The notes under the pieces are model-generated. The model did no database searches and was not told the DNA's origin. It worked only from the letters and a program-made list of their open reading frames with translations. A program made the position numbers and the translations under genes. A stretch of 64,000 bases of DNA from positions 1-64,000 of the IMG/VR virus record IMGVR_UViG_3300021256_000003; one strand, 5' to 3'. The number at the start of each line of letters is the position of its first letter. Positions within the stretch are counted from its first letter, which is position 1. This stretch comes from a virus (taxonomy: Duplodnaviria; Heunggongvirae; Uroviricota; Caudoviricetes). This document shows positions 4,032 to 31,812 of this stretch, piece after piece.

Positions 4032-4430
4032 GGGGATGACGTGGTTTTGACAGTAATTACAGAAGTATATAAGCATGTAGACCTCAATACTAAGCAAGTC
4101 TTAAAACTACTGGTAAATAAATTTAATTGGCAATAGCCATCGTAACATCATCAGCCTCTATAACGAGAGAAAAGCTGCCTGACCTGAAGAACAGTAAGGA
4201 TCAAGGACCTAATTTTATTAAGAATAGTTATCGCTTAATATATTATTAGGTTTGATAAGGTTAAAGGATAATTTGCAATTGTAATCTATCCGAATTATAA
4301 TTAAAGATTAGGATGTAGTATAAATGAATTTTGTTAATTTGCTAGTTTATACGAAACACTAAAATTAACTAAACATGTAGAAAGTATATCATGAATTATT
4401 TGGACTCGGGTTCGACTCCCGACATCTCCA
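4032..4430 (+). ncRNA. ssrA: tmRNA (ssrA), phage-encoded
   Basis: 5' end GGGGATGACGTGGTTTTGACAG compared with E. coli GGGGCTGATTCTGGATTCGACGGG. 3' tRNA-like domain GGACTCGGGTTCGACTCCCGACATCTCCA compared with E. coli GGACGCGGGTTCAACTCCCGCCAGCTCCACCA. Acceptor GGGGATG/CATCTCC includes a G3:U70 wobble, which is the alanine identity element. An internal tag-like frame ...NIISLYNERKAA ends at TGA 4180-4182. Confidence 0.8.
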
Positions 4431-4451
4431 CTAATAAAAAAAATAAAAAAA

Positions 4452-5702: not shown

Positions 5703-6139
5703 TGGATAATCTTGACTGGATTACTAGATTGAATGGGTTATGTAAATCTCTTGATCAGGTTTACCGAATTAACAGTGGTGGTTGTGCAAAAGTAGCTTAT
5801 TATATAGCAAAGGAATTACATAAGCAACATATACCCTATGCTATAAAGGTTTATTTTGGAAACGATTTAACAAAAAAAGATAAACGTAAATTATCTAAAA
5901 CAGGACCTTTTAATAGTACAATTGATAAATATTATTGGACACATTTAGCTATTGTAGTTCAAAATAAGACAATTAATAGCTATTTTAGTAATTCTTATGT
6001 TGTCATAAATACTCCACATGATCTTCGATGGTTAAAGGCTTTTATAGATAATCATGAGTTTAATCCAATTTATGGAACTTCTAATAATCATATTGTTAAA
6101 TCTTACATTAAAGAATTTTTTAAAAATAATATAATATGA
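5702..6139 (+). CDS. hypothetical protein
   Basis: 145 aa ORF. Confidence 0.4.
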   Translation: MDNLDWITRLNGLCKSLDQVYRINSGGCAKVAYYIAKELHKQHIPYAIKVYFGNDLTKKDKRKLSKTGPFNSTIDKYYWTHLAIVVQNKTINSYFSNSYVVINTPHDLRWLKAFIDNHEFNPIYGTSNNHIVKSYIKEFFKNNII

Positions 6140-6957
6140 GTAGCGGTAAAGTAAAAGGAGTACAATATTACTCCAAAATTAATACTTGCTTCAAACGCGA
6201 TATGGATCACTCATCTAAGTTTTATAATTGTATCCAGCCAAACGAAACTTTATCAACTCCAGAATTGGATTATTTTAGAAAGGTTGGATTAAAATTTGAA
6301 GCAACAGAAAAAATTGATGGTGAATGCACATCAATTCATCTGATTCCTCATGTAAACTGTCAAGGACAAACTTGGAAGGATATTGCAGGTAATGAACATT
6401 GGGTTATTGATCATTATACCGTAGAAGTTCATGGTAAGACTAGTGCTGCTTCTATGAGAACGGAAGAAGTAGAACTTCTCCAAAAGATAGGAGATCTTGG
6501 TACTCTTCTTAGTATTTTCTCACAAAAGAAAACAATAACTAACGGTGAACAAACTCAAGATGTGGTATTACCTCCGGAGTCTGAAATTATCATCTTCGGA
6601 GAAACTTATGGTAAGAGAATGCAGAAAGTTGGAAATCGATATGATTCTCAAAAATTAAATTTTATCTGTTTTGATATAAAAATAGGTAATATTTGGTTAA
6701 TGAGGGATTCAATTGAAGATATTTGTAATAAACTAAATATTCAAGCAGTTCCGTTTATAGGAATGTTTACTATTGATGAAGCTATTGAATATGTAAGAAA
6801 AGGTTTTAAATCTACAATTAGCGAAGATTCAACTCTTGAAGCTGAAGGTTTGGTGCTAAAAGCTCCACTTGGTATTCTTACTCGTCTTGGAGGACGTATT
6901 ATTACTAAGATAAAAACTAAAGATTTTCAGGATTTGGAACGTGCTACTAACAGTTAA
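6136..6957 (+). CDS. ATP-dependent RNA ligase (nucleotidyltransferase superfamily)
   Basis: Motif I KIDG (ATEKIDGECTSIH), motif IV EGLVLK and motif V ITKIKTK. Its 273 aa length and the presence of a separate DNA ligase favour an RNA ligase. Confidence 0.55.
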   Translation: MSSGKVKGVQYYSKINTCFKRDMDHSSKFYNCIQPNETLSTPELDYFRKVGLKFEATEKIDGECTSIHLIPHVNCQGQTWKDIAGNEHWVIDHYTVEVHGKTSAASMRTEEVELLQKIGDLGTLLSIFSQKKTITNGEQTQDVVLPPESEIIIFGETYGKRMQKVGNRYDSQKLNFICFDIKIGNIWLMRDSIEDICNKLNIQAVPFIGMFTIDEAIEYVRKGFKSTISEDSTLEAEGLVLKAPLGILTRLGGRIITKIKTKDFQDLERATNS

Positions 6958-6960: not shown

Positions 6961-7656
6961 ATGGAAAAGAAAACTTCAATAACAGTTAGTGCGTTTTCTG
7001 ATTTGCATGGAAATCTCATTAACATCCCTGAATGCGATTTAGCTTTTATGTGTGGAGATTTCTCTCCAGTACAATATGATCGTAATTTAATAGCAGTCGC
7101 AATGTGGATACAGAATTTTATGATTCCTTGGCTTAAAGAGCAAAAGAAAAATTACGATAAATTTATCTTTATTGCAGGGAATCATGATTTCATTTGTGAA
7201 TCTGAAGAATGGAAAGACTGGTTTCAAAATCAGTTAAAAGAAAATGGTCTTGGAGACTCTGTAATTTATTTAGAGGATTCAACTTATAACTATAAAGGAA
7301 TTGACATTTATGGATGTCCTCATTCAGAGATATATGGTTGGGCTTTCTACAGTGGAGATTATAAGGATTACATTCCATCTCCCCAAGCTGACATTATGTT
7401 AGTTCATGCCGCACCAAATATTGGAGGATTAGGAGATACAATACTAGGAGGTTATCCTAGATCATTTGGATCTAATTGTCTTGTAAATGGAATCACTACT
7501 CCTTGTTTAAATCTTCAATATCTATTTTGTGGACACATTCATGGAGGAAGTCATAGACCTTACAAACATGAGAATATCACTATGTATAATGTTTCTATCC
7601 TTGATGAACAATATCAAGTACATTATGAACCTTTAACTACGTCATTATGCTTTTAG
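6961..7656 (+). CDS. calcineurin-like metallophosphoesterase
   Basis: Motifs SDLHGN, CGDFS, IAGNHDF and GHIHGG. Confidence 0.65.
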   Translation: MEKKTSITVSAFSDLHGNLINIPECDLAFMCGDFSPVQYDRNLIAVAMWIQNFMIPWLKEQKKNYDKFIFIAGNHDFICESEEWKDWFQNQLKENGLGDSVIYLEDSTYNYKGIDIYGCPHSEIYGWAFYSGDYKDYIPSPQADIMLVHAAPNIGGLGDTILGGYPRSFGSNCLVNGITTPCLNLQYLFCGHIHGGSHRPYKHENITMYNVSILDEQYQVHYEPLTTSLCF

Positions 7657-8969: not shown

Positions 8970-9638
8970 ATGAAACTTTTAATAGTTCCTGATGTTCACG
9001 GACGTGATTTCTGGATAAAACCTTGTAGAGACATTAAAAAGTATGATAAAATCATATTTCTTGGTGATTATCACGATCCGTATCCTTTTCAAGTAAGTGA
9101 ACATACATCTCGTCAACGTTTAAGAGAAGATTTAGTACCATTTGTTGAAGACAATAAGGACAAAATAATATGTTTAAAGGGTAATCACGATTGTTCTTAT
9201 ACGATAGGGATTATGGCAGATCGTCATGATCGTTATAATCATAATAAAATTAAGAACCTTCTTGAGAGAATGAATTTAAAACTATCTTACAAAATAGACA
9301 ATTTCTTATTTACTCATTCTGGTGTATTACCAGAGTGGTTAGAAAGGAATAATCTTACTTTAGAAGATGTTTTGAATGATAATATTTCTGAGCAAGCATT
9401 GTCTCAAGTATCTCCGAATCGAGGAGGATGGGATGATTGTGGAAGTTGTATTTGGGGAGATGTTAGAGAATATGCTCTTTCTCAAAAAATTTCAGGAATT
9501 TATCAAATTTTTGGACATACTATGTTATATCCAGATTTTAATCCCATTATAACAGAAGAATTTGCATGTCTTGACACAATGAATTGTTATTCGTTGGATA
9601 CTGAAATTGGATATACATCATTAACAAAAATCGATTAA
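8970..9638 (+). CDS. calcineurin-like metallophosphoesterase (Ser/Thr phosphatase-like)
   Basis: Motifs VPDVHGRD, LGDYHD and KGNHD. This is the third paralogous metallophosphoesterase in a 5 kb stretch. Confidence 0.7.
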   Translation: MKLLIVPDVHGRDFWIKPCRDIKKYDKIIFLGDYHDPYPFQVSEHTSRQRLREDLVPFVEDNKDKIICLKGNHDCSYTIGIMADRHDRYNHNKIKNLLERMNLKLSYKIDNFLFTHSGVLPEWLERNNLTLEDVLNDNISEQALSQVSPNRGGWDDCGSCIWGDVREYALSQKISGIYQIFGHTMLYPDFNPIITEEFACLDTMNCYSLDTEIGYTSLTKID

Positions 9639-9736
9639 AATTATTATAGGTTATAGATTAGTTTCTATTTCCTATACAATCCGTAAAAAGCGGTATAAAT
9701 TAATTAATTTATTAAACAACAAAAAATTTTATTAAA

Positions 9737-10480
9737 ATGGAAAAAACTAATGTTAAGAAGGGCATGGCTGCCCAGATGCTGGAAACTATGAAGAATAACT
9801 TTATGCCTAAGATCGATGACGTGGCTAAGCTTACTATCGATGGCACTGTTGTTGTACGTACCAACACTGCTAATGGCAAAGAGTACCTCGGTTTCAAGAA
9901 CGGTAACCTCATGCGCTATCCCGACGCTATGGTCCTCGAAGATGTCCCCGTCTTCACCGTGTGCAAGACCAAGGAGCAGCTCCGCAAGGGTGATATCCTG
10001 AAGGCCACTTCCTCTACCTACAGTATTGTAGACGAGATCCGCGCTGATGGTACCATCCGCAGCGTCTCCTTTGGAGGCAATGTTCGTAAGGTCATGCCTA
10101 TCGCTGACTTCTTCACTAAGCAGGCTACTGTCCGTGTGGTTGTGAACCCCTTCGCTATGGCCGGTGGTGCTATCGATGGCAACATCATGCCTATGCTGCT
10201 CCTGATGGGCAAAGATCAAGACGGTGAAGGTAACAAGCACAGCCTCGTCGAGATGATGATGGTCAGCTCTATGATCGGTGCCCAGGGCGGCAATCCCTTC
10301 AATGGCATCAATCCTATGATGCTTATGATGCTTAACCGCGACGGTAGTGATATGAGCGACATTCTTATGATGTCTATGCTCGGTCAGGGAAACATGAACT
10401 TCTTTGGAGGTTTTGGTGCTCCTGCTCCCGAGCCTGTTGACGTTCGTGAGGAAATGCACGCAGCTGGTAACGCTGAATAA
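9737..10480 (+). CDS. GC-rich, Met/Gly/Asn-rich hypothetical protein with host-like codon usage (likely very highly expressed)
   Basis: Coding GC is about 50% against roughly 30% background. The C-terminus is Met-rich and low-complexity. The antisense 251 aa ORF is an artefact of GC-richness. A strong terminator follows. Confidence 0.6.
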   Translation: MEKTNVKKGMAAQMLETMKNNFMPKIDDVAKLTIDGTVVVRTNTANGKEYLGFKNGNLMRYPDAMVLEDVPVFTVCKTKEQLRKGDILKATSSTYSIVDEIRADGTIRSVSFGGNVRKVMPIADFFTKQATVRVVVNPFAMAGGAIDGNIMPMLLLMGKDQDGEGNKHSLVEMMMVSSMIGAQGGNPFNGINPMMLMMLNRDGSDMSDILMMSMLGQGNMNFFGGFGAPAPEPVDVREEMHAAGNAE

Positions 10481-10500
10481 TTTTATTAACTAAAATGTGA

Positions 10501-10545
10501 AAAGCCCTTCTAAGTTATAATATTTAGAAGGGCTTTATTATTAGA
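10501..10545 (+). terminator. rho-independent terminator
   Basis: AAAGCCCTTCTAA-loop-TTAGAAGGGCTTT followed by ATTATT. Confidence 0.6.
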
Positions 10546-10547
10546 TT

Positions 10548-11294
10548 ATGGCTTGGTATACAGGTGCTAATAAGTGTATTTATTCTTGTTCAGGTGCAAT
10601 TGAACTCCCTTTGAAACAACGTGTATGTTTTGCAGACGCCTTTCGCTGCTTATATACTGATAGAAAAAGCACAGTTGATTATAAAATCTATATAGCTCAA
10701 TTTGATAAAGGTTCAGCTTCTAATTTTTGTACACCTGAAGAAATAAAATACACTTTAAATAAATTAAGAAGAATAGTTCCATTTTCTTTTAAACTTGACT
10801 TTGCTCCTCATACTTTTGATAGACAGCCTTACGGAGTTCTTAATCTTCACATTGAAGGAGATAAATTAACTCACAAAATGATCTTAACGTTTACTCGTTG
10901 TTTCTTTGAATATCCATCTAATGTAGCGGCTAGAGAAGCAATAGATGTATATCCGGAAATTATAAAAAGGTTAAGAGTAGGAAATTCTATTAGTTGGTTT
11001 AATGTTTTCATTACAATTGAATCGTGTTGTGTCGCAAGAGGCGGAGGACATACTTTTACGTGCTCTTATCAACCTGATTCTCCTCTGTTTACTACAGATG
11101 AAATGATTAATCGAATTCATGATAATCCAGGTATTAGTCTTAATAATTTCTTCGGATGTGGAAATGAGCGACTAAAACATGATGATTATGAATTTCCAAA
11201 TACTATGGAAAAACTTACTAACGGAAAACTAATTGAAAAACGAATTCAACATTATGTTGAATTATTAAAAACAAAATTACAATGGCTGAGATAA
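10548..11294 (+). CDS. hypothetical protein
   Basis: 248 aa ORF. Confidence 0.45.
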   Translation: MAWYTGANKCIYSCSGAIELPLKQRVCFADAFRCLYTDRKSTVDYKIYIAQFDKGSASNFCTPEEIKYTLNKLRRIVPFSFKLDFAPHTFDRQPYGVLNLHIEGDKLTHKMILTFTRCFFEYPSNVAAREAIDVYPEIIKRLRVGNSISWFNVFITIESCCVARGGGHTFTCSYQPDSPLFTTDEMINRIHDNPGISLNNFFGCGNERLKHDDYEFPNTMEKLTNGKLIEKRIQHYVELLKTKLQWLR

Positions 11295-11929
11295 AAGTTT
11301 ATGTAGTGGGTTATTCAACTAATTATGCAAATTGGATTAAAGACCACGTATTAGTTGATAAACTAGAAGATGCGAATATAGTTCTTTTTACCGGAGGCGA
11401 AGATGTAGATCCTTCTTTATATGGTCATGAAAATGTACGTTCTTATACAAATAAAGATCGTGATCTTAAAGAGAAAGCTATCTTTGAGCAAATGAGTCAG
11501 TCTCAACTTGCTTTAGGTATTTGTAGAGGATCTCAATTACTATGTTGCCTCAACGGTGGTAAACTATTCCAAGATGTGACCAATCATGCTATAGGTCGTA
11601 CTCATCAAATTACAGATGGTAGTCGTATACTAGAAATAACATCGACTCATCATCAAATGCAGTGTCCTTTTAATCTTCCTTCAAAGACATATCGCATATT
11701 ATGGACTACTCCTGAGCGTTTAAGTAGTCGTTATGCATGGGGAGGTACGGAAGATAGAATAATTCCTCCTTGTGAACCGGAGATTGTTGAGTATCATGTA
11801 AAAGACAAACCAATCAGTCTTGCTATTCAAGGGCATCCAGAGATGATGCGAATGACAAGTCCGACAATCAATGAATTAAATAAATTAGTTAGATCATGCT
11901 TAAAACACATAGAATCACAGAGTTTCTGA
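11282..11929 (+). CDS. class I glutamine amidotransferase-like / gamma-glutamyl hydrolase (peptidase C26) family
   Basis: Catalytic Cys motif LALGICRGSQLL and a C-terminal His-Glu motif IQGHPE. Confidence 0.65.
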   Translation: MAEIKVYVVGYSTNYANWIKDHVLVDKLEDANIVLFTGGEDVDPSLYGHENVRSYTNKDRDLKEKAIFEQMSQSQLALGICRGSQLLCCLNGGKLFQDVTNHAIGRTHQITDGSRILEITSTHHQMQCPFNLPSKTYRILWTTPERLSSRYAWGGTEDRIIPPCEPEIVEYHVKDKPISLAIQGHPEMMRMTSPTINELNKLVRSCLKHIESQSF

Positions 11930-12714
11930 TAGGAACTGATCCTGAATTGTTCCTTGTAAGTCAGAAAACAGGTAAAGTAAAATCAGCAGTACGAGTTATT
12001 CCTGGAACTAAAGAACATCCCCATAAGATTAAAGAATTTGGTGATGGATTTGCTGTACAGACTGATAATATTTTGGCAGAGTTTAATGTTCCGCCAGTTA
12101 ATTCCCAAGAAGCATTCGTTCATAATATTATGAGAATGCAACAACACATTAAAGAAATGGCACAAGCGAAGAATCCTGACTTAGATATTAAGTGTATGGC
12201 TAGTGCGCATGTACCGAAGAGCGAATTACGCAGCAAACAAGCAAAATTGTTTGGCTGTGATCCTGACTACAATATCTATACTGGTGAACAAAATGAAATA
12301 CAGCGTATTCCTGAGAGTGATTTACGTTCAGCTGGATTTCATTTGCATCTAGGATATAACAATAATAATATAGATAATTCAATGAATATATTGTTTTATC
12401 TTGACTTTTATTTAGGAGTTCCTAGTGTACTTATTGATCCCGATACTGAAAGAAGATCACTCTATGGTAAAGCTGGATGTTTCCGACTTACTTCTTATGG
12501 TCTTGAATATCGTAGTCTTTCATCATATATGATGAAAGATGAAAAACATTTAAGATGGATTTGGGATCAAACTATACAAGCAATACAGGCTTATAATCAT
12601 GGTGTAGCACTTCCTGAAGCTAGACATGTTGTTAATTGTATTAATAATAATGATCAAAAGTTAGCTCGAGATCTCTGCAAATATTATAAACTATGTGTGG
12701 ATTGTTTGGAATAG
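11896..12714 (+). CDS. carboxylate-amine ligase, GCS2 (YbdK-like) family
   Basis: N-terminal LIGTDPELFLV (GxExEFxLV-like) and AGFHLHLGY (GxHVHVG-like). Confidence 0.5.
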   Translation: MLKTHRITEFLIGTDPELFLVSQKTGKVKSAVRVIPGTKEHPHKIKEFGDGFAVQTDNILAEFNVPPVNSQEAFVHNIMRMQQHIKEMAQAKNPDLDIKCMASAHVPKSELRSKQAKLFGCDPDYNIYTGEQNEIQRIPESDLRSAGFHLHLGYNNNNIDNSMNILFYLDFYLGVPSVLIDPDTERRSLYGKAGCFRLTSYGLEYRSLSSYMMKDEKHLRWIWDQTIQAIQAYNHGVALPEARHVVNCINNNDQKLARDLCKYYKLCVDCLE

Positions 12715-13949
12715 TAAGTTCTTCTCCAAGAACTTTAGATTTAAGAGCGTTTTGTACGCTCGGTGTTATGAATGATTCTAGAGGAGGTGATTCTTGTGGT
12801 ATCTCTCTCGATGGTAATATTGAATATGGTTTTGGTAAAGAAAGTGCTCTTTTTATCGATTTTATGAGAGTTTCCAAAACATTATTTAAACGGAATCGAA
12901 TCAAAGTAGCATTAGGACATTGTCGTAAAGCTTCTGTCGGAGGAGTTACCCTAGAGAAAGCACAGCCAGTTAAAGTCTTTGATAAAGATGGAAATCTTAG
13001 TATGATCGTTATTCATAATGGAACTATTCATAATTATCAAGACTTAGCCGATAGGTATCTTCCTGGAGAAGATATTTCTGATTTATCTGATTCTCAAGTT
13101 ATGGCTCGGATTTTTCAGAAAGGTCATTATTCGGTGTTGAAAGAATATCGAGGTGGTGGAGCTTTTGTTATTCATGACTTAAAGAAAAATACTGTTTATC
13201 TGTTTAAAGGAGCATCTAAAGCTACTGAATATGCTAAAGAAATTACTGAAGAAAGACCTCTTTTCTGTTGCTATGATAAAGATGCTTTTATTTTTAGTTC
13301 TTTAGCGTATCCATTAGTTGGATTATATCCTAAGAACAAAATCTATCGTATTCCTTGTAATACTCTTTATAAAGTTCATAATGGTAGACTTGTTAAACTT
13401 GAGGTTTTAGATAGGTCTGAATGTTTGCAAAGTAAACCTACAGTTGTAACTGTTAATTCTTATTCTGGCTTCTATCAAGACAGATATATTGATTTTAATG
13501 TTAAAACTGGACGTTATAAGTTAGGAAAGAATTATCTTACCGGAGAACAATTCTTTTCTGACTATGGATATCATTATGATATAAAGAGTCAATGGGCTAA
13601 TTCTTATTGGTTCTGGGGAGGATATATGCTTCCTGGACAGAAATCTTATGAAGCTGTACTTAAATATAGTACAGAGTGCAAGGATCCTCAAAAGGCATTA
13701 CAACTTGCAAAAGCATTAACTTATCTTCCATTTGATGAAAAGGGGTGCTGGATGGAATCCTATGAAGATGGTTCTTTTCATGTTGTAAAAGACAATAAGG
13801 TATCATTTCCTTTGAGTAGGAACGAACTGCATATTAAGAATGGTAGAGCTGTTATGACTTCATATTTGAGTACAATGGATGCTACTGTTTTTAATGATTT
13901 ATCTGATGATATGATTCAAAAAATTGTAAACAATGTATGCCGTAAATGA
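12693..13949 (+). CDS. class II (Ntn) glutamine amidotransferase domain protein
   Basis: N-terminal MCGLFG nucleophile and NDSRGGDSCG, corresponding to HRGPDxxG. Confidence 0.65.
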   Translation: MCGLFGIVSSSPRTLDLRAFCTLGVMNDSRGGDSCGISLDGNIEYGFGKESALFIDFMRVSKTLFKRNRIKVALGHCRKASVGGVTLEKAQPVKVFDKDGNLSMIVIHNGTIHNYQDLADRYLPGEDISDLSDSQVMARIFQKGHYSVLKEYRGGGAFVIHDLKKNTVYLFKGASKATEYAKEITEERPLFCCYDKDAFIFSSLAYPLVGLYPKNKIYRIPCNTLYKVHNGRLVKLEVLDRSECLQSKPTVVTVNSYSGFYQDRYIDFNVKTGRYKLGKNYLTGEQFFSDYGYHYDIKSQWANSYWFWGGYMLPGQKSYEAVLKYSTECKDPQKALQLAKALTYLPFDEKGCWMESYEDGSFHVVKDNKVSFPLSRNELHIKNGRAVMTSYLSTMDATVFNDLSDDMIQKIVNNVCRK

Positions 13950-15141
13950 ACTTACAAGAAGATTTGAAGATTATTCAAGTTTAGTTAGATGTGCTGTGGC
14001 ATATGAGAATGGTATTATAGAATTTGGCTACGTTAATCCGAAAGAGAACTTATGTGTGTATTGCTATGATGATCATGGAAAGTTTTTAGCTAGATATAAT
14101 TCTTTAAAAGACTGTTTGAACTTTAATAGAGAATATGGTATATATACTTTTGATAAGGTTCCTAATGCAAACATTTATGCTGCTGGAAATTTTCCATATA
14201 CTTTTACTAAATACTATAATACTCGATTTTTGAGTGATACTTTTCAGAAATGGCAAGAAAATTACCATAGCATTCAGTTTAAATATGCTGACGAAATGCC
14301 TTATACTTTTGGGTTAGAATTTGAGACTAGTGGAGGATATATTCCAGAGCATGAACTATTTAATTTAGGATTAATTCCTTTAAGAGACGGTTCTATTAGA
14401 GGTCTTGAATATTCTACAATTGTATTAAAGGGGCAACAAGGATTAAACACTCTATACGAAATGACTAAATGTTTGCGTAAATATACAATCTTTGATAAAG
14501 AGTGTTCGTTACACATTCATTTAGGCAATTGGAAACTTGATGAATCTACTATTTTAAAGCTGAATAATTTATTTAGTTCAGCTTCTTTAGGACAATATCT
14601 CCCAAGAGATACTTATAATACTGAACGATATAAAGCAACTGGTAAGAGCTATTGTAAGAAGAATGCTAGCTACAGTACTTTTAATGATTTGTATCGTTCT
14701 TTAGTAGGTAGATCTTATTATGGAGATCTGTATCAACCTCATCCTGATGATACTAATGGAACTAGAAAATGGAATATTCATTCAAGATATAAGGCATTGA
14801 ATCTTATAAATGCTTTATGTTACAATTTTGGTAAAACTGCAGAATTTAGAATATTGAGGCCGACTTATAATTTTGATAAAATTATTTGTTGGTTATATGT
14901 TTTCGCTGCGTTTATCAAATATGCCGAAAATGGATATCGAGTGACTACTTCTGTTGATAAGATTCTTGAAAGAGTTTACTCTCCAGAACTTGCTACTATT
15001 CTTAAACAGTTCTTAAAATTAGAACAAGAGGTAGTAGATAAGCAAACAAATAACGGAGACTATATTGGTGCAGATATTTCATTAGAAGACTCAATTATCA
15101 CTAAAGAGAACTTATCTCCTGATAACAATTTCTTCTATTAA
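13933..15141 (+). CDS. hypothetical protein, co-operonic with the amidotransferase/ligase genes
   Basis: 402 aa ORF whose start overlaps the upstream gene. Confidence 0.5.
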   Translation: MYAVNELTRRFEDYSSLVRCAVAYENGIIEFGYVNPKENLCVYCYDDHGKFLARYNSLKDCLNFNREYGIYTFDKVPNANIYAAGNFPYTFTKYYNTRFLSDTFQKWQENYHSIQFKYADEMPYTFGLEFETSGGYIPEHELFNLGLIPLRDGSIRGLEYSTIVLKGQQGLNTLYEMTKCLRKYTIFDKECSLHIHLGNWKLDESTILKLNNLFSSASLGQYLPRDTYNTERYKATGKSYCKKNASYSTFNDLYRSLVGRSYYGDLYQPHPDDTNGTRKWNIHSRYKALNLINALCYNFGKTAEFRILRPTYNFDKIICWLYVFAAFIKYAENGYRVTTSVDKILERVYSPELATILKQFLKLEQEVVDKQTNNGDYIGADISLEDSIITKENLSPDNNFFY

Positions 15142-15260
15142 TAATATATAGTTAGAAAAAATGTTAAATTTATTTTGATATTTTTTATAAAATAACTATG
15201 TTATTATTAACAACTAAAACCGTTGAAATTGTCGCATGTTACTAGACGATTTAATTGTAA

Positions 15261-15306
15261 AGGAGAACTATAAGTGTATAATTACATAAAGTAGTTCTCC
15301 TTTATA
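15261..15306 (+). terminator. rho-independent terminator
   Basis: AGGAGAACTA-loop-TAGTTCTCCT followed by TTTAT. Confidence 0.5.
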
Positions 15307-15338
15307 TTATTATTTAACCTTCTAATATAAATTATAAT

Positions 15339-15683
15339 ATGAAATCATACATAATTTTCTTAGATGATATAAGAGATCCTGATTCTAATTATGGTATTTC
15401 AACGGTTACAAATAGAAATGAAATTATAGTTATTAGAAATTCTAATGAATTTGAAGCATTTCTTAAAAATGCAATTAATAACCATTTAAAAATAACTCAA
15501 GTTATGTTTGACCATGATTTAGGGTTAAATTCAAAAGATGGTTATGAATGCTTAAAATGGATGCTTAATTATATGAAGGATAATTCATATCCAATACCTT
15601 TAGTTACTTGTCATTCGAGTAATCCAGTAGGACGAGATAATATATTATCCTACTATAATAACTTTAAAAAATATAATACTTAA
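15339..15683 (+). CDS. hypothetical protein (weak receiver-domain-like pattern)
   Basis: 114 aa with an IIFLDD...D..G pattern; weak evidence. Confidence 0.35.
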   Translation: MKSYIIFLDDIRDPDSNYGISTVTNRNEIIVIRNSNEFEAFLKNAINNHLKITQVMFDHDLGLNSKDGYECLKWMLNYMKDNSYPIPLVTCHSSNPVGRDNILSYYNNFKKYNT

Positions 15684-15687: not shown

Positions 15688-16155
15688 ATGCTTAAAGATA
15701 CAATTGATAATGATATACAATCTGCAATCAAATCTAATGCTGAAGAGTATAAAATTAATACTTTGCGTGCTATTAAGACCGAGCTTTTAAATACAGAGAA
15801 AGGTATTGGAGGCAAAAAGCCAACTACAATTACTGATGTTATTGAAGTTAGTGTCCTTAATAAAATGTGCAAGGAGCGTAAAGAAAGTGCTGACCAATAT
15901 CGAAAAGGTGGAAGAGAAGATCTAGCTATTAATGAAGAGAAAGAAATTTCTATTATTAAAACTTATCTTCCAGAAATGCCTTCTGATGTGGAAGTTATAA
16001 GTTATATATCATCGTGTATAGAAAATTTAGCAAAAGAGCATCAAATTTCTTCTCGCGATACTGGTACTATTTTGAAATCTGTTAAAGAAAAGTATCCATT
16101 TATTAATGGAAAATTAGTTTCAGATACTATTGCAGCTTACGTTAAATCTCACTAA
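15688..16155 (+). CDS. GatB/YqeY domain protein
   Basis: ESADQYRKGGREDLAINEEKEISIIKTYLPEMPS...GKLVSD closely matches the YqeY/GatB C-terminal domain consensus. Confidence 0.75.
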   Translation: MLKDTIDNDIQSAIKSNAEEYKINTLRAIKTELLNTEKGIGGKKPTTITDVIEVSVLNKMCKERKESADQYRKGGREDLAINEEKEISIIKTYLPEMPSDVEVISYISSCIENLAKEHQISSRDTGTILKSVKEKYPFINGKLVSDTIAAYVKSH

Positions 16156-17305: not shown

Positions 17306-17995
17306 ATGAAGAAAATCACAAGTATTTTTATGGTACTGACTGTGGCTATGTGCATGATGTTTACTGCTTGTAATGGTTGTAGCCAGAAAAATGAACCTGT
17401 TAATGAGATTACTTATCCCGTGGCTGGTTTAAATGTGGAACGTGTTACCGCCACTGACTTTGAGTACATGACTGCCAACTATGGTAATGACTATCGTTGG
17501 TACGAATGCTGTATCGATGCTAAAGATTGGATTGATGAAAGCGATACATTCTATGTCAACGGTATTGCCAACGTATTCTATAAGGTGTATTTCAATGAGG
17601 ATAGTACGTCTGGTACTGCAAAGGTATATCTGCTTGCACACGTTGGTGATGTATTTACTATTGACTCGACAGAGGGTATTTGGGTTGGTGATGAGCCTAT
17701 GAACGAATTTAATCCTATGAAGATTAATTTTGCTCAAGCTTATGATGCGATGATGAGAACAAATTGTATTAAACCTCATAGTCGTCACTGTGTCCTTCGT
17801 AAGGAACTTGGCCCTCTAGACGCTGCTCCTCAATATATCTTTGGTAATCAAGAGATTCAAGTATATGTGGATGCCCAGAATGGCAGTGTAAATGTTGACA
17901 ACCCAGTGTTTCCTGTGGATGCTAATGACATTCCCGCTGATCGTTCTGAGAATGACAGCACTCTAAAGAAACTAGGCTACGCATTTAGTTGGTAA
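17306..17995 (+). CDS. lipoprotein (moderately GC-rich)
   Basis: Signal peptide plus lipobox MMFTAC. Elevated GC relative to neighbours. Confidence 0.55.
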   Translation: MKKITSIFMVLTVAMCMMFTACNGCSQKNEPVNEITYPVAGLNVERVTATDFEYMTANYGNDYRWYECCIDAKDWIDESDTFYVNGIANVFYKVYFNEDSTSGTAKVYLLAHVGDVFTIDSTEGIWVGDEPMNEFNPMKINFAQAYDAMMRTNCIKPHSRHCVLRKELGPLDAAPQYIFGNQEIQVYVDAQNGSVNVDNPVFPVDANDIPADRSENDSTLKKLGYAFSW

Positions 17996-27954: not shown

Positions 27955-28211
27955 AAGTTACAGTTGACATTGATTCAAAAATTATCAAAATAGATAATGA
28001 TATTTATTTTGGACAAACTCAAGAATCTCATATAGATGATGATGATTGTCAGATATGTGCATTAAACAATTACTGTGAGCATTTAGATAGTTCACCTCTT
28101 TGTGAACCATTCAACGTTTGTTTCTTTAGTAATGGCCCGATAGTGGTAATAGATGCAGAAAGTGTTTCTAATATCACTAAAATTCCTCAAGAAAATATTG
28201 TATTTTGTTAA
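27951..28211 (+). CDS. hypothetical Cys-rich protein
   Basis: 86 aa ORF. Confidence 0.35.
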   Translation: MKVTVDIDSKIIKIDNDIYFGQTQESHIDDDDCQICALNNYCEHLDSSPLCEPFNVCFFSNGPIVVIDAESVSNITKIPQENIVFC

Positions 28212-28258
28212 ATCTTTTAGATTAACTATTTTTAATAAAAAATTAAATTTTTTAAATT

Positions 28259-28639
28259 ATGTTTACAAAAGAATTTGTTTCTAAACAATTTTGTGAAGGT
28301 GGCATTGATGCTATCATGAGTTTAATTCATGCTTTAGAGGTAAAGCCGATGATTGATGATGTCATTCGTCAGTTTGACTTTGAGAAGGTTGCTACCATTA
28401 TTTGTAACACGACAGATAATAAGATTTGCCCTGCTGAACTTAAAGCCGTGGCCACTAAGATGTTGGTTAAAGCTGTTGAAGGATATGAATCTGGCGAGTC
28501 AAATACTGTTGAGCAAAATGGTTTAATTGCGGAATATTTAGCTCCTGGTGACGGTATTGAAAGTGAGAACGGTGAACTTCATCTGAGATATGTTGCTGAA
28601 GCTACTAGTGTAGAGCAGACTGACTTAAATCAACTCTAA
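28259..28639 (+). CDS. hypothetical acidic protein (moderately GC-rich)
   Basis: 126 aa ORF. Confidence 0.45.
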   Translation: MFTKEFVSKQFCEGGIDAIMSLIHALEVKPMIDDVIRQFDFEKVATIICNTTDNKICPAELKAVATKMLVKAVEGYESGESNTVEQNGLIAEYLAPGDGIESENGELHLRYVAEATSVEQTDLNQL

Positions 28640-29037
28640 TGAAACTTCATGTAATAAATAAATATTTTGCAACTATAAATCAAGATACAGAAGTTATCTT
28701 AGTTTGCAAAATAATCTTTAAAAACTTTACTCTTTCTGGGCCAGAAATAGATAGACTTTTAAAGAAGTATGATATAGATCCACTTTCTTTAACATTTAAA
28801 GTAAAAGCTACTGCTCATTTAAAACCTGAAGATACTTTTGACGCAGAGATCGGCAGGAGAGTTGCTGAATCGAAAGCGATGCGTAAAGTATTTCATAAGC
28901 TCAGTGCTTTAAATCTTGATTTTCAAATCGTTGTAGCAAATGAAATTATTGAAGATACCGATAAGTATATGTGGGCTTTAGCTAATGAAAATCTTCATTT
29001 TAATAACCTAAGTAATGGACAGACAACAAATTCTTGA
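28639..29037 (+). CDS. hypothetical protein
   Basis: 132 aa ORF. Confidence 0.4.
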   Translation: MKLHVINKYFATINQDTEVILVCKIIFKNFTLSGPEIDRLLKKYDIDPLSLTFKVKATAHLKPEDTFDAEIGRRVAESKAMRKVFHKLSALNLDFQIVVANEIIEDTDKYMWALANENLHFNNLSNGQTTNS

Positions 29038-29239
29038 TTGTCTTAATTCTGGAAATATAAGTCCTGAATTTATAGCAGATTGGGTATCTGATAAAGTTCC
29101 TTCCGATAAAGTAGGACAAGTTGTTAGTGCAATTATCCAATATGGGATGACTCCGCCTAATATGATACCTGAAATGCTTGTTAAGTATAAAATAAATCAA
29201 GTGTTGTCTCGAACAGGTGAACATATTATGTGGTATTGA
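29015..29239 (+). CDS. hypothetical protein
   Basis: 74 aa ORF. Confidence 0.35.
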   Translation: MDRQQILDCLNSGNISPEFIADWVSDKVPSDKVGQVVSAIIQYGMTPPNMIPEMLVKYKINQVLSRTGEHIMWY

Positions 29240-29456
29240 TATGAATGCTACAATTGATGATATAAGACAAGAAATTTGGTTAAGGATGAGAAATTCTGGG
29301 GATTTAGTTTGGAAAAGTAAAGACCGAGAAATTCCTATTAAAGACATGGAATTATCTCATCTTCTTAATACATATCAATTATTATTAAGAAAAACTAAAT
29401 CAGACTCAACTGATATAGATTCAAGTATATTACAACTTAATGTTAATAAATGTTAA
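29217..29456 (+). CDS. hypothetical protein
   Basis: 79 aa ORF. Confidence 0.35.
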   Translation: MNILCGIDMNATIDDIRQEIWLRMRNSGDLVWKSKDREIPIKDMELSHLLNTYQLLLRKTKSDSTDIDSSILQLNVNKC

Positions 29457-29499
29457 AGTACTTGGATTTTTTAGTAATAATGTGTATTATAAATTAAAT

Positions 29500-29640
29500 G
29501 TGCTTCCGGTTTCTAACTTACCGATAAAGTTAGTGACTATTGCTGGCCTTCTCAACAAGATGAAGGCGGAGTTGGTATAACTATAAAATACGCTAACCTA
29601 GCCTTAGTAAGACCGAAGCACCTTACAACAAGGCTAGGTT
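29500..29640 (+). ncRNA. candidate structured RNA / complex terminator
   Basis: Long-range pairing GTGCTTCCGGT...ACCGAAGCAC encloses stems GCCTTC-loop-GAAGGC and CCTAGCCTT-loop-AAGGCTAGG, followed by TTTTATTATTT. No ORF. Confidence 0.35.
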
Positions 29641-29669
29641 TTATTATTTAATTACTAATAATTTAAACA

Positions 29670-30089
29670 TTGGGAGATTTAATTGTTTATACAGACGGAG
29701 CTTATTCACCTTTGAGAGATCAAGGAGGGATAGGAATAGTATTTGTAAAAGACGGCAAAAAAATTGCCCAATATTCTAATATGTATCCTCATACTAGTAA
29801 TAATCAAATGGAAATTGGCGCAGTAATTGTTGCATTAAAGTCAATTAAACCTCAACAATTTTCTCGGATTATTATTAGAACAGACAGTCAATATGTAATT
29901 GGCTGTGCATCTTTAAATTGGAAAAGAAAAAGAAATCCAAAGTTATGGGAACAGTTTGATTTAATCTTTGGTCAAATTAAAAATTCTGGAGTAGAAGTTT
30001 TATTTGAATGGGTAAAAGGTCATGATGGGGATATGTATAATGAATTAGCAGATGATTTAGCTAGAGATGCTAGTCAAATTATGGTATGA
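29670..30089 (+). CDS. rnhA: ribonuclease HI
   Basis: YTDGAYS, NNQMEIGAVIVAL, TDSQYV and W..VKGHDG..YNELADDLARDA together form the full RNase H signature. The start is apparently TTG. Confidence 0.85.
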   Translation: MGDLIVYTDGAYSPLRDQGGIGIVFVKDGKKIAQYSNMYPHTSNNQMEIGAVIVALKSIKPQQFSRIIIRTDSQYVIGCASLNWKRKRNPKLWEQFDLIFGQIKNSGVEVLFEWVKGHDGDMYNELADDLARDASQIMV

Positions 30090-30379
30090 GAATTGAAGAA
30101 GCTGATTTTATTTTAGAACCTTCTTTGACAGATTATGATGGAATATTTGATTTATATCTTCCTCAACAAGTAAATAGTAAAACTAATCCTAGAATTGAAT
30201 TTAGATCTGCAGGATATGGAATGTCTTTAGCAAGTTGTGTTAAACGGATATGTAGATATCGTGCTATATCTAAACTAAATAAGGAGACTATTACACTTAT
30301 GGAATATATGAAAGCTCTATTAGAATCTGAAGAGGAATTAAAACAGATGTTCAATGAACTTAATATACGTAAAAGATAA
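30086..30379 (+). CDS. hypothetical protein
   Basis: 97 aa ORF. Confidence 0.4.
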   Translation: MRIEEADFILEPSLTDYDGIFDLYLPQQVNSKTNPRIEFRSAGYGMSLASCVKRICRYRAISKLNKETITLMEYMKALLESEEELKQMFNELNIRKR

Positions 30380-30659
30380 TAATGTTGTAGGAGTAAGTAA
30401 GAGGTATGTTTATTTAGAGGAAATCTTTGAATATACACCTAATTCCTGTCGTTTAGCAGATTCTAGATATATCTCGTGTGCTAAGCCTTTAAATCTTAAT
30501 AAATCTCAGTCTTATAAGAGATTTCCCAAAGAAAAACGTTCTTTAAGACGTACTTTAACCTTATTATATGCTCCAGAGCATTATCTTATAGAACAAGAAT
30601 ATATACAAGTAAAAGGTTCCGAACTATTAAAATATGCTAAACAAGTGGGAAAAGGTTAA
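30354..30659 (+). CDS. hypothetical protein
   Basis: 101 aa ORF. Confidence 0.35.
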   Translation: MNLIYVKDNNVVGVSKRYVYLEEIFEYTPNSCRLADSRYISCAKPLNLNKSQSYKRFPKEKRSLRRTLTLLYAPEHYLIEQEYIQVKGSELLKYAKQVGKG

Positions 30660-30984
30660 AATTATAGGAATCATACTACTTATTTTGATTATTTTAGTAT
30701 TTTCATGTATATGGATATACAATAGAACTGTTAAATCTTTGCCTGATACTGAACGAATTATAGATTCTTTATCTAATAAGATTGATAGTATTAAAGTTGA
30801 AAATATTACTTTAATTCAAAAGAATGATAGTATTCAAATTAAAATTGTAGAAGTAGAAAGAAATCATGAAGAGAATACTAACACTATTCTTACTAATAAC
30901 GTGTCTGACGACTACCTCTTTTTCACAGACTACATTGCTAGATACAATGATAGCAATTACGCCAGGACAGTTAAAGACAGCTAA
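30634..30984 (+). CDS. membrane-anchored protein
   Basis: N-terminal TM helix. Confidence 0.4.
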   Translation: MLNKWEKVKIIGIILLILIILVFSCIWIYNRTVKSLPDTERIIDSLSNKIDSIKVENITLIQKNDSIQIKIVEVERNHEENTNTILTNNVSDDYLFFTDYIARYNDSNYARTVKDS

Positions 30985-31249
30985 TTTAATATTTGTGGAC
31001 CATTCTTATCTACAAGAAAAAGTCAATTTATTACAACAGCAGATATCTAATGATAGTATTATTCTTAATAATACATACACAATAGATTCTCTTAGAAATG
31101 AACAACTTTCTCAGTATAAAGTTCAAATAAATGCATTGAATGAGCAAAAAGATTTTTTAAAGAAATCATTAACTTGTTCTAATTTTGTTGCTGGAGGAAG
31201 TGTTATAACTACAGTTATTCTAGCTGTTGTATTATGGGCAACTCGATAA
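30866..31249 (+). CDS. secreted/membrane protein with signal peptide and C-terminal TM
   Basis: MKRILTLFLLITCLTTTSFSQ signal peptide. Overlaps the previous ORF in another frame, so one of the two may be spurious. Confidence 0.35.
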   Translation: MKRILTLFLLITCLTTTSFSQTTLLDTMIAITPGQLKTANLIFVDHSYLQEKVNLLQQQISNDSIILNNTYTIDSLRNEQLSQYKVQINALNEQKDFLKKSLTCSNFVAGGSVITTVILAVVLWATR

Positions 31250-31449
31250 ATATATTTAAAGATGAGGATGGATTTACTTATAGATATCCTGAACGTAGCT
31301 GTAAGAGCTGTTTAAAATATCCGTGTATCCCTGATATGAATACACTATTAAGTGATTTTGCTAAATATGGTTGTTTTGACTATTATGATTTTAATATGCA
31401 CATTGCAGATTTAGAAAAAAAGAAACATAAAAATCATAATGGAAATTAA
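31234..31449 (+). CDS. hypothetical Cys-containing protein
   Basis: 71 aa ORF. Confidence 0.35.
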   Translation: MGNSINIFKDEDGFTYRYPERSCKSCLKYPCIPDMNTLLSDFAKYGCFDYYDFNMHIADLEKKKHKNHNGN

Positions 31450-31759
31450 CGAAATAACTATACACGCTAAACTTCTAGCTTCTGTACAAGAAGGTATGGG
31501 TTATATTACTTATGTATTTGAAAATTTAGAGTTTACTGACGATGATTTTCAATATATAATGTGTGTCCGTTTTCCAAATTGGGAAGGAGTTCTACCTAAA
31601 AATGGGGATGAAGGATATGTATCTTTAAGATATATCCAAGCGGGAGTTGATAAATGGTTTGATGGGAAAGAATTTGTTCCTTATAACTATACTAATGTGC
31701 AGTTTTTAAAATTTGTCCCTATACAAACTAAACAGACAACTACATTGATATTAGATTAA
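31439..31759 (+). CDS. hypothetical protein
   Basis: 106 aa ORF. Confidence 0.4.
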   Translation: MEINEITIHAKLLASVQEGMGYITYVFENLEFTDDDFQYIMCVRFPNWEGVLPKNGDEGYVSLRYIQAGVDKWFDGKEFVPYNYTNVQFLKFVPIQTKQTTTLILD

Positions 31760-31812
31760 ATATTTTTTAATAGATAAATTATGACTACAAGTTAAAAGTA
31801 AATTTTAATAAT

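What the first reader, a model, noticed from the sequence alone, without database searches (positions are those of the whole stretch)
11282..15141. Amidoligase-type metabolite/peptide modification cluster (GATase-I-like, GCS2 carboxylate-amine ligase, Ntn GATase-II, unknown 402-aa protein)
Four overlapping co-directional genes form a cluster. The first is a gamma-glutamyl-hydrolase/class I amidotransferase-like protein (GICRGSQ ... GHPE). The second is a YbdK/GCS2-like ATP-dependent carboxylate-amine ligase (TDPELFLV, GFHLHLG). The third is a class II Ntn amidotransferase (MCGLFG, RGGDSCG). The fourth is a 402-aa protein of unknown function. Phage-borne amidoligase systems of this kind have been proposed to glutamylate or otherwise amidate proteins or make small metabolites, but are essentially uncharacterised. 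The cluster sits just downstream of an extremely GC-rich, Met-rich gene (9737-10480) that could be a substrate or co-expressed product.
Basis: inference. Interest (0 to 1): 0.7.

Follow-up and report, generated by a model that had tools for sequence, protein, structure and literature searches.

The report
Phage amidoligase cluster with candidate substrate
A gut phage carries a widespread but never-tested set of amide-bond-forming enzymes, and here it is always linked to a heavily expressed methionine-rich protein ending in glutamate, which gives the first testable candidate substrate.

Summary
Four overlapping co-directional genes at 11282-15141 encode:
- a Peptidase_C26/class-I GATase-like Cys-His-Glu hydrolase;
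- a phiEco32-type COOH-NH2 ligase (PF14395, not PF04107);
- an Ntn class-II glutamine amidotransferase;
- a second ligase, Amidoligase_2 (PF12224).

This is the phage amidoligase module predicted by Iyer et al. 2009. The ligase alone has relatives in 316 sequenced phages. I found no experimental study and no solved structure.

What is new is the extent of the unit. In every related contig with enough sequence, the order is Met-rich protein, terminator-like hairpin, a 248-aa protein of a new family, then the four enzymes, while the flanking genes differ. The Met-rich gene (9737-10480) has GC3 of 0.60 against a median of 0.18. It is 94% identical in a relative whose neighbouring genes are 59-86% identical. 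In 104 of 120 homologs it ends in Glu, although the tail is otherwise variable.

My best reading (about 0.4) is that the ligases act on that C-terminal glutamate. The main rival (about 0.35) is a small-molecule or cell-envelope target shared with other phages that lack the Met-rich protein. I rate it a new variant of a known, uncharacterised kind.

The parts
9737..10480 (+). Met-rich protein (247 aa): N-terminal beta-barrel domain, Met-rich helices, and a variable Ala/Pro/Val/Glu tail that ends in Glu. Candidate substrate or partner.
10500..10540 (+). GC-rich stem-loop followed by a T-rich tract (terminator or attenuator-like), 8 nt before the next start codon.
   Evidence: Sequence read. Fold energy -23.8 kcal/mol, z = -5.8. 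An equivalent hairpin with a different sequence is present at the same place in 6 other loci (5 distinct sequences, L009 and L011 being identical), z -4.4 to -7.0. The consensus terminator scan missed it because of its loop and T-run rules.
10548..11294 (+). 'h248' protein (248 aa) of an undescribed family; overlaps the next gene by 13 nt.
11282..11929 (+). Peptidase_C26 / class-I glutamine-amidotransferase-like Cys-His-Glu hydrolase (215 aa).
   Evidence: PF07722, 58 bits; phrog_7218, E 1.4e-31. The GICRGSQ nucleophile motif and the IQGHPE motif are conserved in the lineage and in cr108_1. Weak similarity to gamma-glutamyl-GABA hydrolase and gamma-glutamyl-CDP-amidate hydrolase and to PDB entry 3fij.
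11896..12714 (+). phiEco32-type COOH-NH2 (carboxylate-amine) ligase, type 2 (272 aa).
   Evidence: PF14395, E 7.8e-12; phrog_3815, E 3.9e-76. tblastn finds relatives in 316 phage records. Residues invariant across phage lineages include E62, H149, H151 and the E204-Y205-R206 motif. No relative in the PDB.
12693..13949 (+). Class-II (Ntn) glutamine amidotransferase domain (about residues 1-230) plus an unassigned C-terminal domain (418 aa in total).
   Evidence: GATase_6 and GATase_7. The motifs Met-Cys-Gly at the start, RGGDSCG, GHCRKAS, HNGT, SDSQ and EERP are conserved. The closest solved and curated relatives are PurF, AsnB and GlmS, through the N-terminal domain only.
13933..15141 (+). Amidoligase_2 (glutamine-synthetase-like carboxylate-amine ligase), 402 aa.
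   Evidence: PF12224, 31.2 bits against a cut-off of 22; phrog_2443, E 9e-18. Invariant residues are G127, E129, E131, S154, G157, E159, C191, S192, H194, H196, E304 and R306. Relatives occur in cr108_1 and in Cellulophaga phage phi14:2, where it is annotated 'amidoligase enzyme'. No relative in the PDB.
15260..15315 (+). Stem-loop (GGAGAACTA...TAGTTCTCC) followed by a T-rich tract; the likely end of the transcription unit.
   Evidence: Sequence read. It appears as a long helix in the fold of the intergenic region 15142-15338.

Best explanation
The functional unit spans 9737-15141 and contains six genes.

Shown:
- It holds two different ATP-dependent carboxylate-amine ligases of the glutamine-synthetase/GCS type (PF14395 and PF12224).
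- It holds an Ntn glutamine amidotransferase whose glutamine-binding and catalytic motifs are intact but which has no synthetase domain of its own.
- It holds a C26-type Cys-His-Glu gamma-glutamyl hydrolase or glutaminase.
- It holds a conserved protein of unknown fold (h248).
- All of these lie downstream of a very highly codon-optimised, slowly evolving Met-rich protein, whose variable tail almost always ends in a free glutamate.
- A conserved terminator-like hairpin separates the Met-rich gene from the enzyme genes.

Inferred:
- The Met-rich protein is made in large amounts, and the enzymes in small amounts by read-through of the hairpin.
- One or both ligases phosphorylate a carboxylate of the terminal Glu. 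They then join it to an amine. The amine could be ammonia channelled from the amidotransferase, which would amidate and neutralise the terminus. It could also be an amino acid or a lysine.
- The C26 enzyme either supplies more ammonia or removes the gamma-glutamyl-type linkage.

In general terms, this would be a phage protein C-terminal modification or tagging system built from the amidoligase module of Iyer et al. 2009.
For: - Enzyme assignments and conserved catalytic motifs.
- Linkage: every locus that carries a Met-rich homolog (about 47-57% identity) and has at least about 1 kb downstream shows h248, GAT1, lig2, GAT2 and amidoligase in that order, while the flanking genes differ.
- Hairpin: a hairpin with a T-tract sits in the 51-71 nt spacer at all 7 loci folded (6 distinct sequences, L009 and L011 being identical), leaving no room for a promoter before h248.
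- Expression signature: GC3 is 0.60 against a median of 0.18, with C-ending and CGY codons in place of the phage's A-ending codons. The protein is 94% identical where neighbours are 59-86% identical.
- C-terminal residue: Glu in 104 of 120 homologs and Asp in 9 of 120. Among 76 distinct tails, 61 end in Glu, against 11.5% Glu in the rest of the tail.
- Contrast case: the one distant homolog in a phage with no amidoligase genes (cr85_1) ends in KEEK.
- The amidotransferase has no ATP-binding acceptor domain, so it must work with separate ligases.
Against: - The same core (lig2, GATase-II, Amidoligase_2) occurs in hundreds of phages with no detectable Met-rich protein. These include Kuravirus, Bruynoghevirus, Vibrio phage Vp_R1, and the crAss-like phages cr108_1 and phi14:2. 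A common substrate would therefore have to be something else.
- All Met-rich-linked loci come from one phage lineage, so synteny may partly reflect shared descent.
- No physical or biochemical link is shown.
- The terminal Glu could instead be a protein-interaction tip.
- The Met-rich region of the model has low confidence.
Confidence: 0.4

Rival explanations
1. The enzymes are the same, but the target is a small molecule or a cell-envelope precursor shared by all phages that carry the module. Examples would be a gamma-glutamyl amide or peptide metabolite, a polyamine conjugate, or peptidoglycan-stem amidation that blocks superinfection, as attributed to Iyer et al. 2009. On this view the Met-rich protein is only a co-transcribed, highly expressed early gene.
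For: The core triad is conserved in very different phages that lack the Met-rich protein. In those phages the accessory genes are RimK-like ATP-grasp ligases and gamma-glutamyl cyclotransferase, which points to gamma-glutamyl small-molecule or peptide chemistry. The cell-wall idea is the one quoted in the literature. The GATase-II retains residues that bind free glutamine.
Against: It does not explain the invariant adjacency of the Met-rich gene, the conserved attenuator hairpin, or the selected C-terminal Glu in this lineage. No transporter, lipid-carrier or cell-wall gene lies in the block.
Confidence: 0.35
2. The cluster modifies nucleic acid or nucleotides, for example amino-acid or amide hypermodification of DNA bases, or tRNA-linked Glu-to-Gln type amidation.
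For: In the crAss-like phages cr108_1 and phi14:2 the cluster sits between primase and uracil-DNA glycosylase in the replication module. In Bruynoghevirus it lies next to the primase/helicase gene. In the window it is surrounded by RNA ligase, phosphoesterases, cREC, YqeY, tRNAs and a tmRNA.
Against: No base-modifying partner (hydroxymethylase, DNA kinase, glycosylase-like transferase, DpdA/Tgt) was found in the block. The flanks are not conserved among relatives. ThyX, not a hydroxymethylase homolog, is the only thymidylate-synthase-type gene seen.
Confidence: 0.1
3. The cluster is an auxiliary metabolic module that simply redirects host nitrogen, through glutamine/glutamate interconversion, to fuel phage replication.
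For: There are two glutamine-hydrolysing domains and two glutamine-synthetase-like ligases. Several genome papers list these genes as auxiliary metabolic genes.
Against: Neither ligase resembles true glutamine synthetase or GshA closely enough to hit any solved structure or NCBIfam model. Four or five translationally coupled genes plus lineage-specific partners is more machinery than bulk nitrogen metabolism needs.
Confidence: 0.07

Closest known systems
Phage amidoligase gene neighbourhood of the phiEco32/LUZ24 type (Iyer, Abhiman, Burroughs & Aravind 2009, Mol Biosyst 5:1636; source of Pfam PF14395 and PF12224)
   Same: The same three core families (PF14395 ligase, PF12224 Amidoligase_2, class-II GATase) are co-directional and adjacent. 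In both cases the function is predicted only.
   Different: The gene order is GAT1-lig2-GAT2-amidoligase, rather than lig2-X-amidoligase-GAT2. A C26 hydrolase is present in place of the gamma-glutamyl cyclotransferase. No RimK-like ATP-grasp was found among the ORFs I scanned between 8970 and 16155. Two extra conserved partners, the Met-rich protein and h248, are present. The about 200-aa protein between lig2 and amidoligase in Kuravirus, TL and Vp_R1 is not a GAT1 homolog.
crAss-like phage cr108_1 (MT774385) cluster gp_22626-22632
   Same: It is the closest annotated relative: GAT1 43%, lig2 46%, GAT2 40% and amidoligase 34% identity, in the same order, preceded by two h248-family paralogs.
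   Different: It has an ATP-grasp gene and two h248 copies. No Met-rich homolog was detected in the record. It lies between primase and UDG.
Pupylation (Pup, with PafA ligase and Dop deamidase/depupylase)
   Same: A carboxylate-amine ligase of the GS/GCS kind acts on the side-chain carboxylate of a C-terminal Glu at the end of a flexible tail, and a partner enzyme deamidates or removes it (established knowledge). Here there are two such ligases, amide hydrolases, and a protein with a variable tail ending in Glu.
   Different: The Met-rich protein is 247 aa with a folded N-terminal domain and has no GGQ/GGE motif. There is no sequence similarity between PafA/Dop and either ligase. No proteasome link is seen. 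This is an analogy only.
LysW/ArgW amino-group carrier proteins with LysX, and RimK with ribosomal protein S6
   Same: A ligase forms an amide at a C-terminal Glu of a protein (established knowledge). RimK-like ATP-grasp genes accompany the module in other phages.
   Different: Those ligases are ATP-grasp enzymes and the carrier is a small zinc-ribbon protein. The window block has no ATP-grasp gene, and the Met-rich protein is unrelated in sequence and fold.
Split glutamine amidotransferases such as MurT/GatD and GatCAB
   Same: A glutaminase subunit delivers ammonia to a separate ATP-dependent enzyme that activates a Glu carboxylate (established knowledge). The window's GATase-II has no synthetase domain, and the ligases are separate genes.
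   Different: The ligase folds differ: Mur-ligase or GatB there, GS-like here. No homology was detected.

Membership tests
Phage amidoligase module (Iyer et al. 2009 type) | A PF14395 phiEco32-like COOH-NH2 ligase type 2 | tested here: met
   PF14395, 45.4 bits against a cut-off of 25; phrog_3815, E 3.9e-76.
Phage amidoligase module (Iyer et al. 2009 type) | A PF12224 Amidoligase_2 enzyme in the same gene array | tested here: met
   PF12224, 31.2 bits against a cut-off of 22; phrog_2443, E 9e-18. The E-x-E, H-x-H and E-F-R motifs are invariant.
Phage amidoligase module (Iyer et al. 2009 type) | A class-II (Ntn) glutamine amidotransferase in the array | tested here: met
   GATase_6 and GATase_7 above their cut-offs; catalytic motifs conserved.
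Phage amidoligase module (Iyer et al. 2009 type) | The array is conserved across unrelated phages | tested here: met
   Kuravirus, Bruynoghevirus, Vp_R1, cr108_1, phi14:2 and eight or more metagenomic relatives.
Phage amidoligase module (Iyer et al. 2009 type) | Accessory RimK-like ATP-grasp ligase and/or gamma-glutamyl cyclotransferase next to the core (seen in TL, UFV-P2, Vp_R1 and phi14:2) | tested here: not met
   No ATP-grasp or GGCT/AIG2 hit among the ORFs I scanned between 8970 and 16155. A C26 hydrolase occupies the 'bond-breaking' role instead.
GCS2 / YbdK carboxylate-amine ligase (PF04107) | A significant match to the PF04107 profile | tested here: not met
   PF04107 is not among the Pfam hits at E <= 0.1. 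Only PF14395 matched, and there was no NCBIfam hit. Any relationship is at superfamily level only.
Peptidase C26 / class-I glutamine amidotransferase | Profile match plus the Cys-His-Glu catalytic triad | tested here: met
   PF07722, 58 bits against a cut-off of 20.5. The Cys of G-I-C-R-G and the His and Glu of G-H-P-E are conserved in six orthologs.
Peptidase C26 / class-I glutamine amidotransferase | Whether it acts as a glutaminase or as a gamma-glutamyl-X hydrolase | not testable with these tools
   It scores higher for C26 (58 bits) than for GATase (21.5 bits, below that model's cut-off). Sequence alone cannot decide the substrate.
Class-II (Ntn) glutamine amidotransferase | An N-terminal Cys nucleophile directly after Met, plus glutamine-binding Arg, Asn-Gly and Asp motifs | tested here: met
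   The M-C-G start, RGGDSCG, GHCRKAS, HNGT and SDSQ are conserved in the lineage, in cr108_1 and in phi14:2.
Class-II (Ntn) glutamine amidotransferase | A fused acceptor or synthetase domain (as in PurF, AsnB, GlmS) | tested here: not met
   All profile and PDB matches cover only about residues 1-230. By eye the C-terminal ~190 aa have no PP-loop motif, and they hit nothing.
Pup-like protein modifier system | A small, intrinsically disordered modifier ending in GGQ or GGE | tested here: not met
   The Met-rich protein is 247 aa with a folded beta domain. Its tail ends in E but not in GGE.
Pup-like protein modifier system | A ligase homologous to PafA/Dop | tested here: not met
Substrate/enzyme operon with attenuator (as in RiPP precursor operons) | A stoichiometric substrate gene followed by a read-through hairpin and then the enzyme genes | tested here: met
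   The hairpin is conserved in structure but not in sequence (6 distinct sequences at the 7 loci folded). The codon-bias contrast is GC3 0.60 against 0.16-0.21. That the protein is the substrate remains untested.

The most novel reading that the evidence does not exclude
The Met-rich protein is a phage-made protein whose C-terminal glutamate is activated by glutamine-synthetase-like ligases. It would then be amidated, extended or conjugated to other proteins. That would be a previously unknown phage-encoded C-terminal protein-modification or tagging system, analogous to Pup/PafA or LysW/LysX. It would also give the first substrate for the amidoligase module found in hundreds of phages.
Probability: 0.25. 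Interest if true: 0.85.

Novelty: new variant of a known kind. Interest (0 to 1): 0.55.

Why it matters
The PF14395/PF12224/GATase-II module was predicted in 2009. It is present in therapeutic-candidate phages (LUZ24-like, phiEco32-like), in marine phages and in crAss-like gut phages, yet I found no experiment or structure for it.

This lineage supplies what the others lack, namely a concrete candidate substrate. The candidate is abundant and conserved, ends in the chemical group these ligases act on, and is physically and transcriptionally linked to them. That turns an open annotation problem into a simple co-expression and mass-spectrometry experiment.

If the protein is the target, it would add a new type of protein C-terminal modification to phage biology.

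Tried and rejected
- Near-identical DNA in the phage collection: none found.
- Iyer et al. 2009 could not be read because it is not held. Its proposal is known here only through citing papers.
- Literature searches for any experimental work on the cluster, on PF14395/PF12224, or on Met-rich crAss-like proteins found only genome descriptions.
- Are the ~300-aa unknown proteins upstream of lig2 in Kuravirus, TL and Vp_R1 homologs of h248? By eye they share a Cys-Phe/Tyr-Gly motif near the N-terminus. However, BLAST, HMM search, hhalign against single sequences (no better than controls) and profile-profile comparison with a Kuravirus gp092 alignment all failed. BFVD fold search found only crAss-like proteins. 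I treat this as unsupported.
- I first assumed that the small gene between lig2 and amidoligase in Kuravirus, TL and Vp_R1 was a GAT1 homolog. The alignment shows it is not.
- Small ORFs upstream of the RimK-like genes in other phages, considered as Glu-terminated carriers: only TL gp19 ends in Glu, and the others end in K or S. Rejected.
- The Met-rich family was absent from IMG/VR by pattern scan.
- A shared promoter motif upstream of the Met-rich gene is not enriched in the window.
- The ~1 kb insertions that split GAT1 and lig2 in relatives gave no Rfam intron hit.
- PADLOC gave no defence-system hits.


Full report
**Observation.** They overlap by 34, 22 and 17 nt, and the quoted motifs are present. 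The preceding 248-aa ORF (10548-11294) overlaps the first gene by 13 nt, so five genes are translationally coupled.

**Enzyme assignments.** Profile searches give:

| ORF | Length | Assignment | Support |
|---|---|---|---|
| 1 | 215 aa | Peptidase_C26 / class-I GATase-like | PF07722, 58 bits; phrog_7218, E 1.4e-31 |
| 2 | 272 aa | 'Phage phiEco32-like COOH.NH2 ligase type 2' | PF14395, E 7.8e-12; phrog_3815, E 3.9e-76 |
| 3 | 418 aa | Class-II glutamine amidotransferase, N-terminal ~230 aa only | GATase_6 and GATase_7 |
| 4 | 402 aa | Amidoligase_2, a second carboxylate-amine ligase | PF12224, 31.2 bits against cut-off 22; phrog_2443, E 9e-18 |

ORF4 is therefore not an unknown protein.

Catalytic motifs are conserved across lineages:
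- C26 enzyme: the Cys of GICRG and the His/Glu of GHPE.
- GATase-II: Met-Cys-Gly at the start, RGGDSCG, GHCRKAS, HNGT and SDSQ.
- PF14395 ligase: E62, H149, H151 and E204-Y205-R206.
- Amidoligase_2: E129, E131, E159, H194, H196, E304 and R306.

NCBIfam gives only far sub-threshold, superfamily-level similarities. For the C26 enzyme these are PuuD and gamma-glutamyl-CDP-amidate hydrolase. For the GATase domain they are AsnB, PurF and GlmS. Neither ligase has any detectable relative among solved structures, by single sequence or by profile.

**What kind of genome this is.** The window is about 31% GC. It carries phage early and replication genes: RNA ligase, two metallophosphoesterases, cREC, YqeY, an SF2 helicase, DnaB, primase, a Sak4-like protein, a PD-(D/E)XK nuclease, NrdD, DNA ligase, a sigma-70-family factor and ThyX. 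It also has 11 tRNAs and a tmRNA. The primase's relatives are crAss-like, Bacteroides and Flavobacterium phages and human-faecal phage contigs. Relatives of the locus lie on contigs of 98-189 kb. The host is therefore probably a gut member of the Bacteroidota; this is an inference.

**Relation to what is known.** tblastn with the PF14395 ligase finds 316 phage records, from Pseudomonas, Escherichia, Vibrio, Aeromonas, Proteus and other hosts. The best is the crAss-like phage cr108_1, at 46% identity.

Annotated neighbourhoods show the same core in very different phages:
- Kuravirus: two unknown proteins, lig2, an unknown ~200-aa protein, amidoligase, GATase-II, then a RimK-like gene.
- Bruynoghevirus TL and UFV-P2: the same arrangement plus an ATP-grasp gene and a gamma-glutamyl cyclotransferase.
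- Vibrio phage Vp_R1: the same core, with a RimK-like gene downstream.
- cr108_1: ATP-grasp, two unknown proteins, GAT1, lig2, GAT2, amidoligase, UDG.
- Cellulophaga phage phi14:2: primase, GGCT, RimK-like, lig2, GAT2, amidoligase, UDG.

This is the neighbourhood defined computationally by Iyer et al. 2009. I could not read that paper. Citing papers say it proposed peptide or metabolite synthesis, or cell-wall modification that prevents superinfection. I found no experimental study. The finding as stated is thus a correct identification of a known but uncharacterised kind of system.

**What is new: the unit is larger here.**

*The Met-rich gene.* The gene at 9737-10480 is a striking outlier:
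- GC is 50% against 31% for the window.
- GC3 is 0.60 against a median of 0.18 over 52 ORFs. It uses ATC, AAC, TTC, CTC, CGY and AAG where the rest of the phage uses A-ending codons.
- The phage's own tRNAs read mostly A-ending codons. The Met-rich gene therefore looks tuned to host tRNAs and very high expression; this is an inference.
- In a relative (L009) it is 94% identical in protein sequence while its neighbours are 59-86% identical.
- It has 258 or more homologs at about 50% identity.

*Linkage.* Every locus with at least about 1 kb of sequence downstream of a homolog shows the same order: Met-rich, h248, GAT1, lig2, GAT2, amidoligase. These loci include L009-L016, L019, L025-L027, L030, L031, L033 and L036-L041. 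The genes on either side of the block differ between loci.

*Hairpin.* In all seven loci examined (six distinct sequences, L009 and L011 being identical), the 51-71 nt spacer after the Met-rich gene holds a strong GC-rich hairpin followed by a T-tract. The sequence differs from one distinct version to the next (z -4.4 to -7.0). In the window it lies at 10500-10540, 8 nt before the h248 start codon. With no room for a promoter, the enzyme genes must be transcribed by read-through. That arrangement gives much product of the first gene and little of the rest. A second hairpin with a T-tract follows the last enzyme gene, at 15260-15315.

**The Met-rich protein itself.** It has three parts:
- conserved Met-rich helices, modelled with low confidence;
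- a tail rich in Ala, Pro, Val and Glu that varies in length and sequence.

Despite that variability, the last residue is Glu in 104 of 120 homologs and Asp in 9. Among 76 distinct tails, 61 end in Glu, whereas Glu makes up 11.5% of the rest of the tail. The only homolog in the phage reference collection is in the crAss-like phage cr85_1. It is 33% identical over the N-terminal domain and also Met-rich, but it ends in KEEK. That genome has none of the four enzyme genes.

**Mechanism.** Established knowledge of the families says three things:
- GS/GCS-type ligases phosphorylate a carboxylate with ATP and join it to an amine.
- Ntn amidotransferases release ammonia from glutamine for a partner synthetase.
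- C26 enzymes hydrolyse gamma-glutamyl amide bonds.

Here the GATase-II has no synthetase domain of its own. It should therefore serve one of the separate ligases, as in other split amidotransferases.

A free C-terminal Glu, which has two carboxylates, on an abundant protein encoded just upstream is a plausible substrate. My preferred model is that the ligases amidate, extend or conjugate that terminus. The C26 enzyme would act as a second ammonia source or as the removing enzyme, and h248 as an adaptor or further enzyme. The steps from 'plausible substrate' onwards are inference.

I put this model at about 0.4. The main reason for caution is that the same core enzymes work in hundreds of phages with no Met-rich protein. 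The chief rival, at about 0.35, is a small-molecule or cell-envelope target common to all carriers, with the Met-rich gene merely co-transcribed. Nucleic-acid modification (about 0.1) is suggested only by genomic position. Bulk nitrogen metabolism (about 0.07) fits the enzymology poorly.

**Comparison and verdict.**
- *Membership in the Iyer-type phage amidoligase module:* the three core families and their conserved adjacency are met. The ATP-grasp and GGCT accessories are absent from the block, and a C26 hydrolase is present instead.
- *GCS2/YbdK (PF04107):* it is not a member.
- *Pup/PafA-Dop, LysW/LysX and RimK/S6:* these are analogies for how it might work. Their defining features were tested where possible and not met.

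I classify it as a new variant of a known, uncharacterised kind. Interest is moderate (0.55). The enzymes themselves are no surprise to a specialist, but the conserved, Glu-terminated, highly expressed partner makes a question that has been open since 2009 directly testable.

Noticed in passing
window 4032-4433 (+); tRNAs at 2069, 3371, 16967, 17146, 18028, 18114, 19025, 19801, 19884, 20071, 27069: The phage encodes a tmRNA (Rfam RF00023, 96.5 bits; ARAGORN tag peptide GNSHRNIISLYNERKAA) and 11 tRNAs. Many of the tRNAs read A-ending codons: Val-TAC, Glu-TTC, Leu-TAG, Lys-TTT, Ile-TAT and Thr-TGT.
   Followed up: partly
window 6136-6957, 6961-7656, 8970-9638, 15339-15683, 15688-16155: A set of RNA-repair-like genes surrounds the cluster: RNA ligase, two calcineurin-like phosphoesterases, a cREC (cyclic-phosphate processing receiver) domain protein and a YqeY/GatB-like protein. 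The downstream pair is not conserved next to the cluster in relatives.
   Followed up: partly
L015 5881-7052; L025 9798-10783 and 11591-12747; L031 9817-10812; L038/L039 9807-10801 and 11750-12773: In several relatives the GAT1 and/or PF14395 ligase genes are interrupted by insertions of about 1 kb. These carry ORFs that include a faint LAGLIDADG hit and a reverse-strand 249-aa ORF. No Rfam intron family matched at gathering score, so their nature (intron, split gene or homing-endonuclease insertion) is open.
   Followed up: partly
L025 7136-7211; L031 6832-6912: RAGATH-1 hammerhead ribozymes (57-58 bits, just above the gathering score) lie about 0.8-1.1 kb upstream of the Met-rich gene in two relatives.
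   Followed up: no
window 9704-10459 (-): A 251-aa His-rich antisense ORF lies entirely within the Met-rich gene. It is most likely a by-product of the GC-rich, stop-poor sequence and not a gene.
   Followed up: no
L044 (cr85_1) 28201-33627, compared with L001 (cr108_1) and L045 (phi14:2): In cr108_1 and phi14:2 the amidoligase genes fill the slot between primase and uracil-DNA glycosylase. In cr85_1 the same slot holds a ThiF (E1-like) protein and a protein annotated as containing a metalloprotease domain. Two different conjugation-type enzyme sets may therefore occupy one locus.
   Followed up: no
window 42829-43413 and 17306-17995: These two ORFs have the next-highest GC3 in the window (0.36 and 0.35, against a median of 0.18). 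The second begins with a lipoprotein-like signal, MKKITSIFMVLTVAMCMMFTAC. Neither has a family hit.
   Followed up: no
window 52177-53022 and 36652-37518: A phage-encoded sigma-70-family factor (regions 2, 3 and 4) and a GIY-YIG/NUMOD homing endonuclease are present.
   Followed up: no
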